From Perna viridis (lineage: Eukaryota), in NCBI GenBank assembly GCA_037379345.1, contig CM074521.1:33380704-33444703 (forward strand): 64,000 nucleotides of DNA, in the 5' to 3' direction. Of the stretch, positions 36,001 through 63,000 are shown piece by piece (position 1 is the first letter of the stretch; the number at the start of each line of letters is the position of its first letter). Made by a program: the position numbers.

Positions 36001-39000
36001 AACCTACTAATAAATATACATTACTGTACAAGAAATCGATTAGTTACATCAATTTTTATGAAATTTCTTCCGCCATAAAGAAACTACTAGTACTTTTTTT
36101 ATAGTTTTTTCCTGCAATTTGAATACGGATTGTTGCAACTTACCGAAGTCATGTTTATGACCCTTTTTTTACTTTCTTTGGGTAGGTAAAGCTTGAAATG
36201 GATATCATTTGTTCCTCTTCATAAAAGGCATGGGCGAAGTGTTCATATAACAGTTTAACCTTTGACAGATAATACATTCTTTGATGATAGAAATGTCATT
36301 GAACATTTTCGAATATGTACTACCGGTATATTATGTTCGATTTGAGATAGGTATGTTTCTTTACAAAAAATCCATAAAAGCTTTTCATGTTCTATTTGCT
36401 AACTTTCTCCTAATCTTTCTCAGAAACGTTTTGGTCTTAATATAATTGCAACATGTTTATATTCTTTAAGAATTTTTGGTCAAGTATCAGTATTAACCCC
36501 AATTCTTCTTGATTAGAGAAAAGCAATCACATTTCTTTGTCTTGCAGTGGTTGATTCTGAACTTCCAATCTATGCAAAAATTATCAAGTTCATACAAACA
36601 ATGCTTCAAATCCTCCCGGAGATGTATATACTGAGTCACCTGTGTATGGTTGATACATAGTTGTTCAGAATAACTGGCTCATAAACATCTTTGTGATATG
36701 ATTTGATATTATCAAATTAAGAGAATAAATGTCAAATACTGGTTTCTCATATCCTCTTGGTAATTTCTCTTTAAAGGTGACTTTCAATTTGCGTCATAAC
36801 AAAATGATACTCACAAAAAAATTGGAACCCACAAAATTATTTGAACAGGATATACATATATATATCAGTATCATACGGAGATTGACATACACAGAAATAA
36901 ATAAATTCAAAGACTAATTCAATCAGGTTAATAAGAAATGTCCAAAGTGTTATGAGACTATCGAAGATTCAAGAATAAACCTGTTACACTTTACATAATT
37001 TTAAAATAGACAACAAGATATCATATACTGGGCTTCCACATAAATGACACTGTCCATCTTTTGGTTAACCAACCCATAGGTAAGCAATTCGCTTAAAATT
37101 ATCAATTTTTAGGTTTCCACTGTGTCTAGCGAATTGCCAAATTAAGTCGATCATTGGGTGCTTCTAAACTTGAAGAATCGAGAAAAGTCACGGTATTTCG
37201 CAATCGCTCTACCTTCTTCCGGACTTCTTTGTATTTTATAGCATCATTCACAAGAATCTTTCACAGAGATTTGGATGGGAAAATACCAGTGAATATGTAT
37301 CCCTTGAAATAATTAAAGAGAGAATTTAGCTGAAATATGAACTAGGTGTGGTATTAGTCCAAGTTGTTCCCTTTCTGTATCTATAAAGAATTGGAATATT
37401 CTATGCACGAAAATGTGTTTGGTAAGAAATTTTGTATCCTTTTGACAGAGTTGTTGTAGAAACATCAGTTTATGTTTTTTTATCAGTCACAGGTAGTCTT
37501 TCTAGATTTAACATACTTTCGTACCTGTCTAAACGTATTGAAATTTTTAAGCCTTGAAAATGTGTAACACGTGTTGGAATGCTTCAAGTGCATGAATATC
37601 TTTGACTTTTAGTTCATTCCAAAGCCCGCATTCATAAAGAACAGCAGAGACGATACTTCTACAGAACAAGCCACACACTGTTAAGGGGTTTCACAGAGAC
37701 GATTCGGTACCGACAATAGCAAAATAGGCGTTACGACTTTTTCTGCAGGCTTGCTGGGCACTGGTGACGCGTCTTTAGATCGATGTATTCCAGGATGTTT
37801 TGTTTCTTTTAGTACACATTTATTTCAAAGTCCTAGTTTAAAGCTATTTTTGTCATCAAAATAACTTATCACTACTGACTTGCTCGGTTTGAATTAAAAC
37901 CTTCATTTCAGCGAATAATTATAAGCACAATTTAGAAGGACTTGTAGTCTGTGTGATGATGTTCTGATGCACACTAGAATTCATTTGAGGTGTTTTCCGG
38001 TGTCTTACTTATTTTGTTTTGAAAATGAATATCGAGAACAGAGTTACTTTTTCGCTTTCTATGTCATGATATTGTGAAATTACTAGTAGTTTCCTAAATA
38101 GTCGAATATCGCACTCGGTTGCTTCGTCAGTTTCACGTCACGTTAAGTATTGACCATGTAAAATATTTTACGCTAATTGTTGCGTATTACGGAATTCATT
38201 CTTGTTTGTAGTCAGTGTATGAAGCGGAGGAAGAGCCTCTTGGTCTCACTTCATCGACCCATTTCTTACGAGCTAAACGTACATGTTTATGTGCATTTTT
38301 AACCTCAGTGTTCCAGTACGGGTTTGCCCTTGAATTAAAACTGGACGATGGTAAAGTAACAGTTGCACATGTAAGAAGCGTATCAGTCAATTTTTCGTTT
38401 AAACAGTCTATATCATTTCCATTAACAAATCAAACATTTTCTCGTCTATTAACTCCTTGTACCTTTGGTTCATTTGAGGGTGCTTTAGACCTATTTCCGT
38501 TAGAGTTTGTCATTAAAATGTCTTTATACGAAATTTTGTCTTTGTAATTGGAGGAAAGTTCAACTTAACTGTCACGGGTTGTACTTTTACTGTTTGGGAT
38601 CGGAGGCTCTTTAATTTGCCGTGTGTTTTACTGGCAATTTTGTTCTGAATTATCCCGTCCTACACTGTTAAGTTCATGCATGGGAATTTCACGTTGCTCT
38701 TTTTGCAGGTGGGGCATTTATTTTGCTTATGTGAGGTGAATCGTTTGTGTTCACATGTGCTTGTTTGTCACCCAAATTTCGATTAGCCTTTTCGGTGTTA
38801 CTCATTCACTCGATTTCCACATTCAATGTCGTTGATTTCGCCGAACAGTTAAACATAACGATACTCATAAGTGTCCATTTGGTTTAGGCTCATTGAGGTT
38901 CAAGGCGGGGCGCTTTTCTGTATCGACGTTTGAAGAGATGAGATTACACACGATTTTGTTTTATTTCCGATTGGAGTGTGCTGATTTGACTGTCAAACAC

Positions 39001-60000: not shown

Positions 60001-63000
60001 AAACGTATTGAAATTTTTAAGCCTTGAAAATGTGTAACACGTGTTGGAATGCTTCAAGTGCATGAATATCTTTGACTTTTAGTTCATTCCAAAGCCCGCA
60101 TTCATAAAGAACAGCAGAGACGATACTTCTACAGAACAAGCCACACACTGTTAAGGGGTTTCACAGAGACGATTCGGTACCGACAATAGCAAAATAGGCG
60201 TTACGACTTTTTCTGCAGGCTTGCTGGGCACTGGTGACGCGTCTTTAGATCGATGTATTCCAGGATGTTTTGTTTCTTTTAGTACACATTTATTTCAAAG
60301 TCCTAGTTTAAAGCTATTTTTGTCATCAAAATAACTTATCACTACTGACTTGCTCGGTTTGAATTAAAACCTTCATTTCAGCGAATAATTATAAGCACAA
60401 TTTAGAAGGACTTGTAGTCTGTGTGATGATGTTCTGATGCACACTAGAATTCATTTGAGGTGTTTTCCGGTGTCTTACTTATTTTGTTTTGAAAATGAAT
60501 ATCGAGAACAGAGTTACTTTTTCGCTTTCTATGTCATGATATTGTGAAATTACTAGTAGTTTCCTAAATAGTCGAATATCGCACTCGGTTGCTTCGTCAG
60601 TTTCACGTCACGTTAAGTATTGACCATGTAAAATATTTTACGCTAATTGTTGCGTATTACGGAATTCATTCTTGTTTGTAGTCAGTGTATGAAGCGGAGG
60701 AAGAGCCTCTTGGTCTCACTTCATCGACCCATTTCTTACGAGCTAAACGTACATGTTTATGTGCATTTTTAACCTCAGTGTTCCAGTACGGGTTTGCCCT
60801 TGAATTAAAACTGGACGATGGTAAAGTAACAGTTGCACATGTAAGAAGCGTATCAGTCAATTTTTCGTTTAAACAGTCTATATCATTTCCATTAACAAAT
60901 CAAACATTTTCTCGTCTATTAACTCCTTGTACCTTTGGTTCATTTGAGGGTGCTTTAGACCTATTTCCGTTAGAGTTTGTCATTAAAATGTCTTTATACG
61001 AAATTTTGTCTTTGTAATTGGAGGAAAGTTCAACTTAACTGTCACGGGTTGTACTTTTACTGTTTGGGATCGGAGGCTCTTTAATTTGCCGTGTGTTTTA
61101 CTGGCAATTTTGTTCTGAATTATCCCGTCCTACACTGTTAAGTTCATGCATGGGAATTTCACGTTGCTCTTTTTGCAGGTGGGGCATTTATTTTGCTTAT
61201 GTGAGGTGAATCGTTTGTGTTCACATGTGCTTGTTTGTCACCCAAATTTCGATTAGCCTTTTCGGTGTTACTCATTCACTCGATTTCCACATTCAATGTC
61301 GTTGATTTCGCCGAACAGTTAAACATAACGATACTCATAAATGTCCATTTGGTTTAAGCTCATTGAGGTTCAAGGCGGGGCGCTTTTCTGTATCGACGTT
61401 TGAAGAGATGAGATTACACACGATTTTGTTTTATTTCCGATTGGAGTGTGCTGATTTGACTGTCAAACACTGCAAAATCAGTTGTAGTTCGACTCATTAC
61501 TTTCACTACTTTTGCATTAGATTCAAGTTTTGACACTCTTGGAATGAATTCGGCTTTAAAAAGTTCGAATTGTTGCTATTGGATTTCAACGCTTGTTTCA
61601 AGTTCTAGTATTTATGCAGAAAGTTTCTTCTCTAAGATTTCTTTGTTTTTTAACTACTTTCCAGTGTAGTTAATCTTTCAATTAATAATTGTACTGTACT
61701 GATAAGTTCTACCTGATAGACCAGATTGTTTTCATTGATAGTTTCATTAGTCACATTGCTATTTAGCGGGTTTATAAATTTACTGAAATCTGAGTCTATT
61801 TCTGTAGATTCACCCTCTATATACATTTGAAGAACATAACAATCTTTCCCATACTTTTATATGCTTGAAGCCTTGTTCGTTGTCATTCTGTAGTACATTT
61901 TACCCTTCGGGCACCCCTAAATATCATTTGCCCAAAATAGGAAAATATAATGATACCAGGTTATTAGGGATTCATTTCCATTGGCAAGGTTCAGTTGCTT
62001 TAGTATTCTTGTCTCTTGGTCGAATATGTGTGTATGTGGTCTAGTTTTAGTAATGTTTGCTGAGAAGGAATGTAGGTGTCTTGCGTGAAAAAAAGTGGTA
62101 CCTTATGGCTGCCATCATGAATGTTTACATTTTGCAACTGGGACCATTGGTCATATTGCGAAGAGTTCAAAAGATCGATTGCACTGTTATTGTATACGGA
62201 TGTGTTGTACTGACTACCTTCTAGACTGTCTTAAGTCTTACTGACACCACTTCTGTGAACGTAGGACTTCCTGACTCATCAATGATACCAGAATTTGGAT
62301 CACAGTCAGGGGAACGTTCAAAACATGCGGCCATTTTTTTCTGTCTCCCATATAGGAGTTTTTGAATTTTGTGATACTGCAAATTTCGATAAATAATTTA
62401 TGATATAAAACGAGACACAATTCACTCCTCATACATTTAAGAAATAACTTGGTGAACACTATTTTCAGAATTGTGGAGTAATATGACTTGACTTATGAAA
62501 TAAATTGTAACTAAGCAAACTATTTATAATAATATTCTTTCCAGAATATGTGCCGCTTAAAATTTCTTTTTCACGTGCAAATGATGTCCGGCTGTTTTCT
62601 TTACCGACTGCTTGAGAATCCCTTAATATTTGTAAAGACGCAGGATAGTCGGATTGTCAGTTGGCCAGCATTCATAGAGACAAAAGTAAAAAATAATATT
62701 TTACTAAAACTAAATAAACTGAACAAATCAAACAAAACTAAACATATATATACAACATGCAAATGAACATAAGTAAATGGGCATGCAAATGAAAGTATGT
62801 AAGCAAACAAAAGTCACAGTTCACACACAGTAAACAAACTAAAAAATGGTGTAGTAAAATCTAATAGATTATTCAATCAACATCTCTCACCATAGCTTCT
62901 ACGGTACACCATAATCGATGGTCAAGATCTAGGACGCAACGATTTCTGTAGACTTTCAATATAAATTCAAACTAAATTTCATCATTTCAATATATATTCA

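What the first reader, a model, noticed from the sequence alone, without database searches (positions are those of the whole stretch)
36448..62965. 26.5-kb tandem amplification whose every junction is bridged by a captured sulfotransferase fragment
Seen: the structure is A-S-A-S-A-S-A-S-A-S-A. A is contiguous with unique flanks at both ends: identity starts at gcaacatg (36448) and ends at caatataaa (62965). S (443 bp, open sulfotransferase frame) occurs only between copies, and no other recognisable part of that gene is in the window. A is mostly old LINE debris, yet the copies are almost identical, so the amplification is recent. Inference: one chimeric junction formed by template switching or by a chimeric extrachromosomal circle (A+S), then amplified by rolling-circle replication or unequal exchange. 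This would be gene-fragment capture without transposon termini at the unit ends.
Basis: partly seen in the sequence, partly recalled or inferred. Interest (0 to 1): 0.7.

Follow-up and report, generated by a model that had tools for sequence, protein, structure and literature searches.

The report
Tandem array carrying a sulfotransferase fragment
A 4.5-kb stretch of old repeat debris plus a well-preserved middle piece of a sulfotransferase gene is repeated almost six times head to tail, most likely a copy-and-paste replication accident that was then expanded, which is a known kind of rearrangement and probably has no function.

Summary
The structure is real in this sequence. Window 36448-62965 is a head-to-tail array with a 4,494-bp period and 5.9 copies, 99.83-99.96 % identical.

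S is an undecayed internal fragment of a PAPS-type carbohydrate-sulfotransferase-like gene on the minus strand. It covers positions 88-228 of a 341-position family profile.

Two corrections:
- "S at every junction" is simply what a 5.9-copy array looks like.
- The window does hold another part of such a gene. A heavily decayed, colinear sulfotransferase relic lies at 35939-36376, 71 bp left of the array. It overlaps the last 125 bp of S at 69 % identity and runs on to the C-terminus.

S is young, while the relic is decayed and A holds only debris, and non-sulfotransferase sequence bounds S on both sides. No transposon termini were found. The last copy is the most diverged.

Best reading (0.45): one templated-insertion duplication (A-S-A) copied S from a paralogue, then unequal exchange expanded it. 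This kind is known (PMC7025897).

The donor locus, read support, empty allele and taxon could not be checked. I do not take the window for human.

The parts
36448..62965 (.). Head-to-tail array, period 4,494 bp, 5.9 copies (units start at 36448, 40942, 45436, 49930, 54424, 58918; the last unit is 4,048 bp)
   Evidence: Self-BLAST; unit alignment with 8 variable columns; boundaries
36448..40498 (.). A, copy 1 of 6 (4,051 bp). The others are 40942-44992, 45436-49486, 49930-53980, 54424-58474 and 58918-62965; the last has a 3-bp deletion
40499..40941 (-). S, copy 1 of 5 (443 bp): internal sulfotransferase fragment, family-profile positions 88-228 of 341. This copy has one private, synonymous base difference
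44993..45435 (-). S, copy 2
49487..49929 (-). S, copy 3
53981..54423 (-). S, copy 4
58475..58917 (-). S, copy 5
40406..41020 (-). 204-codon ORF spanning 26 codons of the next A start, all of S and 31 codons of the A end. It is repeated at +4494k in all five junctions
   Evidence: Pfam Sulfotransfer_1 and _3 below cut-off; own profile E 1.2e-35
35939..36376 (-). Decayed sulfotransferase relic in the left flank. It is colinear: an S-like part (36252-36376, about profile 188-228) followed by the C-terminal part (36256-35939, profile 228-334). It is read in more than one frame and contains stops
   Evidence: (D2)
36377..36447 (.). 71-bp spacer between the relic and the first A, with no similarity to the rest of S
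   Evidence: score 10.0; 272 of 500 shuffles score as high
36496..36678 (-). Stop-free stretch with a weak reverse-transcriptase match (retroelement debris inside A, repeated in every unit). The gene is fragmentary, with many stops and frame changes; none of the stop-free stretches of 55 codons or more that I listed for A is longer than 111 codons
   Evidence: RVT_1 E 0.041, profile 160-192 of 205, below cut-off

Best explanation
This is a recent germline rearrangement in non-coding, repeat-rich DNA of an AT-rich animal-type genome. There were two stages.

Stage 1 (inferred). While A was being copied, the growing strand left the template at the A end. It copied 443 nt from the middle of a working paralogous sulfotransferase gene, then returned to the start of A. 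This gave A-S-A: a tandem duplication with a templated insertion at its junction, the structure called a 'cycle of templated insertion'.

Stage 2 (inferred). Unequal exchange between the A copies raised the number to six A and five S.

S lacks the N-terminal third, which holds the loop I recall as binding the sulfate donor, and the C-terminal third. The array therefore cannot encode an enzyme and is most likely neutral. The old sulfotransferase relic beside the array suggests the locus lies in, or is a remnant of, a cluster of such genes, so the donor may be nearby.
For: Shown.
- Array geometry and near-identity.
- S belongs to the sulfotransferase family and is undecayed.
- Homology stops at both S ends.
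- The neighbours are old: relic at 9.1 bits against a median of 87.8 in real proteins, and only a sub-threshold reverse-transcriptase match in A.
- No terminal inverted repeats, target-site duplication or tandem microsatellite at the unit ends.
- The terminal copy holds 5 of the 8 variable columns privately and shares a sixth with unit 4, while units 2, 3 and 5 are identical. This fits an older first junction and a younger expansion.
- The relic, used as a stand-in for the unknown donor, stays similar to the array for about 10 nt beyond the S/A-end boundary. That would be microhomology at the point of departure.

Known kind. PMC7025897 (passages read) defines 'cycles' of templated insertions as strings of copied segments that return and re-replicate a segment of the host chromosome, and links them to tandem duplications. 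PMC8654963 (passages read) reports spontaneous tandem duplications of about 100 bp to 10 kb, and separately templated insertions at deletion junctions, in C. elegans repair mutants.
Against: - The donor gene was not seen. No protein in 1.84 billion representatives is more than 36 % identical to S.
- The phase of the array is not fixed by the sequence.
- The relic lies 71 bp from the array edge, on the same strand and in colinear order. By position alone I put that at well under 1 % for a random placement in 37.5 kb of flank (my estimate). The plain model does not explain it.
- No microhomology is visible between the S end and the flank that precedes A.
- That A continues unbroken into the left flank rests only on a motif I recall. 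No comparator could be obtained.
- The copy number rests on one assembly.
Confidence: 0.45

Rival explanations
1. Resident gene piece. The locus once held a sulfotransferase gene running C-terminal part, S, A on the plus strand. The segment S+A was duplicated to an integer six copies, and the first S later decayed or was partly deleted. What remains of it is the relic and the 71-bp spacer.
For: The left flank shows exactly the predicted order and strand: C-terminal part, S-like part, then A. Counting the relic as S number 0 makes the copy number an integer. Adding the A-start side raises the sulfotransferase score by 5.1 bits, matched by 38 of 1,000 random extensions.
Against: - The relic is 69 % identical to S, whereas the adjoining A copy is 99.9 % identical to the other A copies.
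- About 243 bp of S are missing, and the 71 bp left show no S similarity.
- The C-terminal part is decayed (9.1 bits) while S is not. One gene would not age so unevenly.
- A reverse-transcriptase-like stretch ends within 48 bp of the A start.
Confidence: 0.15
2. Assembly or library artefact. The true locus has one or two units, and the assembler or a concatemeric read inflated the number.
For: Units 2, 3 and 5 are identical over 4,494 bp, as collapsed or polished copies would be. No read data are available here.
Against: Both ends of the array join unique sequence cleanly. Units 1, 4 and 6 carry their own differences, including a 3-bp deletion and one variant shared by two non-adjacent units. 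A pure concatemer of one molecule would not show these.
Confidence: 0.15
3. Circle route. A 4,494-bp extrachromosomal circle of A+S formed, was copied by rolling-circle replication, and re-entered the chromosome by recombination within A.
For: The end product would be identical: A(SA)n with both flanks intact and near-identical copies.
Against: It still needs an earlier join of S to A. It predicts equally young copies, yet the terminal copy is clearly the most diverged. Nothing in the sequence calls for a circle.
Confidence: 0.1
4. Transposon-mediated capture. S was picked up and carried by a mobile element, of cut-and-paste, rolling-circle or retro-transduction type, and the unit is that element.
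For: The surroundings are rich in retroelement-like debris. S and the reverse-transcriptase-like stretch lie on the same strand.
Against: No terminal inverted repeats, target-site duplication or A-rich tail at the ends of S or of the unit. No other copy of the unit in 37.5 kb of flank. S is an internal coding piece, not a 3' end.
Confidence: 0.05

Closest known systems
Cycles of templated insertions (replication-based copy-and-paste rearrangements; PMC7025897, passages read)
   Same: A host segment is re-replicated as a tandem duplication, and a piece copied from elsewhere sits at the junction. There are two breakpoints, no transposon termini and a low-level copy gain.
   Different: Those were described in somatic cancer genomes. 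Here the event is fixed in an assembled germline genome of a non-human animal-type genome, and a further expansion to six copies followed. The donor was not seen, so 'copied from elsewhere' is inferred.
Microhomology-mediated replicative template switching (the FoSTeS and MMBIR models; names recalled). PMC5120786 seen in a search listing with the start of its abstract; PMC8654963 passages read
   Same: It produces duplications with inserted stretches at the junctions and short or no homology at the joins.
   Different: Microhomology could be judged only through the relic as a proxy, about 10 nt at one join, and none was seen at the other. In the C. elegans passages I read, the templated insertions map to sequence flanking the break; the 443-nt S has no full-length source in this window.
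Macrosatellite or tandem arrays kept alike by unequal crossing-over (general knowledge)
   Same: Kilobase-scale units, very high identity among inner copies and a more diverged edge copy.
   Different: Only six copies, unique flanks and a non-integer copy number whose missing piece coincides with the gene fragment.
Carbohydrate sulfotransferase gene families, expanded in some lophotrochozoans (PMC4595640, one passage read: 30 copies in Lingula)
   Same: S and the relic belong to this type of family. Relatives pass the Pfam Sulfotransfer_1 and _3 cut-offs. Two unlike fragments 4 kb apart fit a local cluster.
   Different: Neither piece is a whole gene. The taxon of the window is unknown, so the link to that expansion is only an analogy. 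The paper's supplementary tables and figure on the expansion could not be seen.

Membership tests
PAPS-dependent sulfotransferase (Pfam Sulfotransfer_1 / Sulfotransfer_3) | Significant match to the family profile | tested here: met
   Directly against Pfam, S is below cut-off: 16.9 bits against 22 and 17.3 against 27. However, 114 relatives were found, 6 of 6 tested pass both Pfam cut-offs, and S scores E 1.2e-35 against a profile of 48 of them. In the Atlas, 26 of 30 nearest clusters are sulfotransferases.
PAPS-dependent sulfotransferase (Pfam Sulfotransfer_1 / Sulfotransfer_3) | N-terminal sulfate-donor-binding loop (label recalled) | tested here: not met
   No stretch of the window matches profile positions 1-78. 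The best candidates have E 2.7 and 3.5 and lack the motif.
PAPS-dependent sulfotransferase (Pfam Sulfotransfer_1 / Sulfotransfer_3) | Central conserved block including the second nucleotide-binding motif (label recalled) | tested here: met
   Profile 145-185 aligns with high posterior to the S frame, the stretches VVIKTIRFP and LIRDPRPVITSQ of the ORF.
PAPS-dependent sulfotransferase (Pfam Sulfotransfer_1 / Sulfotransfer_3) | Complete domain in one gene | tested here: not met
   S covers 88-228 of 341 profile positions. The relic covers about 188-334 and is decayed.
Cycle of templated insertion | Host segment duplicated in tandem with foreign sequence at the junction | tested here: met
   A-S-A geometry, with the flanks joining A directly.
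Cycle of templated insertion | Insert is a copy of a donor locus that remains in place | not testable with these tools
   No eukaryotic genome collection is on hand. The best protein identity to S is 36 %.
Cycle of templated insertion | No transposon hallmarks at the joins | tested here: met
   No terminal inverted repeat, target duplication or tail.
Cycle of templated insertion | Short or no homology at the joins | tested here: inconclusive
   About 10 nt of similarity at the A-end join when the relic stands in for the donor. Nothing at the A-start join. A 5.1-bit protein-level hint, p about 0.04.
Plain tandem duplication of resident sequence | Integer number of units in one phase | tested here: inconclusive
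   5.9 copies. It is an integer only if the 69 %-identical, shortened relic is counted as the first S.
Transposon-borne gene fragment | Defined element termini and dispersed copies | tested here: not met
   No termini. No second copy in the flanks. The rest of the genome was not testable.
Non-LTR retrotransposon (for A) | Reverse-transcriptase and endonuclease domains | tested here: inconclusive
   RVT_1 at E 0.041 and 14 bits, below the 29.6-bit cut-off, in 1 of 10 stretches. No endonuclease match. The Atlas lead is at chance level, 0.78.

The most novel reading that the evidence does not exclude
The old relic is not a bystander. The first 125 nt of the freshly copied S are homeologous to the relic, 69 % overall and 84 % over 43 nt. 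That pairing could have tethered the wandering strand beside the relic, so that it re-entered the template 72 nt downstream, at what became the start of A. A dead gene copy would then have fixed the left end of the duplicated segment, which would be a homeology-guided return step in a templated-insertion event. A bolder variant is that the five identical 204-codon ORFs are kept because they are used, for example as a source of RNA against the parent gene family.
Probability: 0.12. Interest if true: 0.55.

Novelty: new member of a known kind. Interest (0 to 1): 0.3.

Why it matters
If the reads confirm it, this is a clean germline example, outside cancer genomes and model organisms, of a tandem duplication seeded by a templated insertion and then grown into a small macrosatellite. 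It shows how a coding fragment can be moved and multiplied without any transposon, giving raw material for exon shuffling or for regulatory RNA. The relic beside the array offers a concrete test of whether old homology steers where a switching strand lands. As it stands, it is an ordinary, probably neutral structural variant.

Tried and rejected
- TRF found nothing because its period limit is 500; self-BLAST replaced it.
I sent stop-free stretches instead. Flank ORFs gave no family (0 of 10 at a credible level).
- Rfam at gathering score: 0 matches. tRNA scan: 0.
- An upstream sulfotransferase exon inside A (39453-39635, profile 41-77) was rejected: E 3.5 and no motif.
- Continuation of the gene into the A end was rejected: no gain in score and no match in any frame.
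- The 71-bp spacer as a remnant of S was rejected.
- Word-index protein searches with S (longer and near lengths) and with a flank retroelement ORF gave no hit at E<=1e-3.
- PDB by sequence: no relevant structure for S or for relative P0002.
- No comparator for the retroelement debris could be found inside the window. Whether that debris runs unbroken from A into the left flank therefore stays untested.
- No poly-A tail was found after the relic, so a retrocopy origin of the relic is neither supported nor excluded.
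Full report
**What is there.** The window has no N. Self-comparison shows one large feature. From 36448 to 62965 the sequence repeats with a period of 4,494 bp: five full units and a sixth of 4,048 bp, with pairwise identity of 99.83-99.96 % and a single gap. The six units differ at 8 of 4,494 alignment columns, and units 2, 3 and 5 are identical. Unit 1 has one private base, which lies in S and does not change the ORF. 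Units 4 and 6 share one base. Unit 6, the truncated copy next to the right flank, has three private substitutions and a private 3-bp deletion. The geometry, coordinates and sizes of the finding are therefore correct.

**What S is.** On the minus strand a 204-codon ORF (41020-40406, repeated in all five junctions) runs through S and a little way into A on both sides.
- Pfam sees it only weakly, below both cut-offs.
- A search of 1.84 billion representative proteins gave 114 hits at E<=1e-3. The best is E 1.1e-13 at 36 % identity.
- Six of six relatives that I tested pass the Pfam Sulfotransfer_1 and Sulfotransfer_3 cut-offs.
- A profile built from 48 relatives of 280-470 aa matches the ORF at E 1.2e-35, profile positions 79-228 of 341.
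- S alone scores 115.4 bits. The A-end side adds nothing. The A-start side adds 5.1 bits, which 38 of 1,000 random 13-residue extensions taken from the window also reach.
- Over profile 88-227, S scores like an ordinary family member: 20 of 37 non-training proteins score lower. The family was collected with S as the query, which flatters S somewhat.
- No part of the window matches the N-terminal 78 profile positions.

S is thus an undecayed internal piece of a sulfotransferase gene. It lacks both the N-terminal third and the C-terminal third, so it cannot make an enzyme.

The left flank holds a second sulfotransferase remnant on the same strand.
- DNA 36252-36376 aligns to the last 125 bp of S (40503-40627) at 69 % identity. 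The score is 62.5 bits against at most 44.0 in 40 shuffles. By Smith-Waterman it is 52.5 against at most 22.5 in 100 shuffles. The repeat finder reports 84 % over 43 nt.
- Directly after it the strand matches profile positions 228-334 (36256-35939). tblastn with two of the 114 relatives also hits here, at E 6.4e-4 and 0.003. The profile score of 9.1 bits exceeds all 678 null translations of the flank, whose highest is 2.1.
- The relic is old. Real proteins score 25.8-112.4 bits (median 87.8) over the same positions, and the relic needs more than one frame and contains stops.
- It continues past the point where S ends, so it is not an old copy of the array junction.
- It lacks profile 88-187, so it cannot be the source of S.
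- Seventy-one base pairs with no likeness to S separate it from the first A.

**What A is.** None of the stop-free stretches of 55 codons or more that I listed for A exceeds 111 codons. One of ten stretches gave a sub-threshold reverse-transcriptase match, E 0.041, on the minus strand, ending 48 bp from the A start. A second stretch gave a chance-level match to an unrelated viral glycoprotein family, which I read as noise. Other stretches look to me like retroelement debris, but that rests on recall. The Atlas gave no usable lead, and no comparator could be obtained. The retroelement genes are fragmentary, with many stops and frame changes. I describe them only and built no joined or mended form. 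'Mostly old LINE debris' is plausible but only weakly shown.

**The logic of the phase.** Any array with 5.9 copies can be written A(SA)5, so 'S occurs only between copies' restates that the last copy lacks 443 bp. The missing piece coincides at both ends with the limits of the sulfotransferase homology, and S is young while everything around it is old. A plain duplication of resident sequence would give an integer number of copies. The alternative is that the relic is the decayed first S of a resident (S-A)x6 array. That fits the order and strand of the relic, but it needs one gene to have aged very unevenly. It also needs a switch from 69 % to 99.9 % identity exactly at the S/A boundary, together with a 243-bp loss.

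**Most likely mechanism.** One event made A-S-A. The strand copying A left at the A end, copied 443 nt of a working paralogue, and returned to the A start. With the relic as a stand-in for the unseen donor, similarity to the array runs about 10 nt beyond the S/A-end boundary, which would be microhomology at departure. At the other join I see none. No terminal inverted repeats, target duplications or tails are present. Later, unequal exchange between A copies raised the number. The terminal copy, which takes least part in exchange, is the most diverged.

This is the structure that PMC7025897 (passages read) calls a cycle of templated insertion, and that paper links such cycles to tandem duplications. 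PMC8654963 (passages read) reports spontaneous tandem duplications of about 100 bp to 10 kb in C. elegans repair mutants. It also reports templated insertions at deletion junctions that map to break-flanking sequence. The 443-nt S has no full-length source in this window. A circle intermediate would give the same product and cannot be excluded, but nothing requires it.

**What remains odd.** The relic lies 71 bp from the array edge, colinear with S. I estimate this at well under 1 % for a random placement in 37.5 kb of flank; the estimate is mine and was made after the fact. Either the locus is a remnant of a sulfotransferase cluster and the closeness is luck, or the relic took part, for example by pairing with the new strand and steering its return. 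The second reading is my most novel one.

**Source.** I do not take the window for human.
- Rfam found no SRP-derived or other RNA family.
- The intact S frame is at most 36 % identical to any of 1.84 billion representative proteins.

The taxon is unknown. A lophotrochozoan is my guess from the look of the flank ORFs (recall), and PMC4595640 (one passage read) reports 30 carbohydrate sulfotransferase genes in Lingula.

**Not checked.**
- Read support, the donor locus, the empty allele and other copies of the unit in the genome.
- The bacterial and archaeal genome collection was not scanned, since it cannot hold this locus.

**Verdict.** It is a new example of a known kind of rearrangement, probably neutral, and of modest interest.

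Noticed in passing
window 40934-40948 (and +4494k): The S/A-start join lies inside a small hairpin-like inverted repeat of two 6-nt arms with a 3-nt loop. Separately, the last 8 nt of S resemble the first 12 nt of A in the same direction, allowing two gaps. Either could be chance in AT-rich DNA or a trace of how the join was made.
   Followed up: no
window 22876-23551 versus 32786-32116; also 24066-24208 versus 32129-31986: Two copies of a repeat in opposite orientation, 85-90 % identical. They carry ORFs with no Pfam match that look to me, by recall only, like a retroelement-type repeat. This may be the virus-like stretch the operators mention. Described only.
   Followed up: partly
window 26418-27068 versus 30731-30098; 26646-26834 versus 33246-33057: Further diverged inverted copies (67-76 %) of a repeat with a reverse-transcriptase-like ORF. 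No Pfam family at E<=0.1.
   Followed up: partly
window 8688-9086 versus 21314-21763: Direct repeat pair, 77 % identical over 450 bp. The ORF at 21301-21711 has no Pfam match.
   Followed up: no
window 995-1270 (-) and 17466-17855 (-): Proline- and glutamine-rich ORFs of 91 and 129 codons with no family match. These may be low-complexity coding remnants or chance.
   Followed up: no
window 1-64000: The longest ORF in 64 kb is the 204-codon S frame. G+C is 31-41 % throughout. No tRNA and no Rfam family were found. This is gene-poor, repeat-rich eukaryote-type DNA.
   Followed up: partly
window 37396-37478 versus 40543-40581: Short similarities between the inside of A and S: a 25-nt direct match at 76 % and a 21-nt inverted match at 81 % (D6 and I3). 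Probably chance.
   Followed up: no
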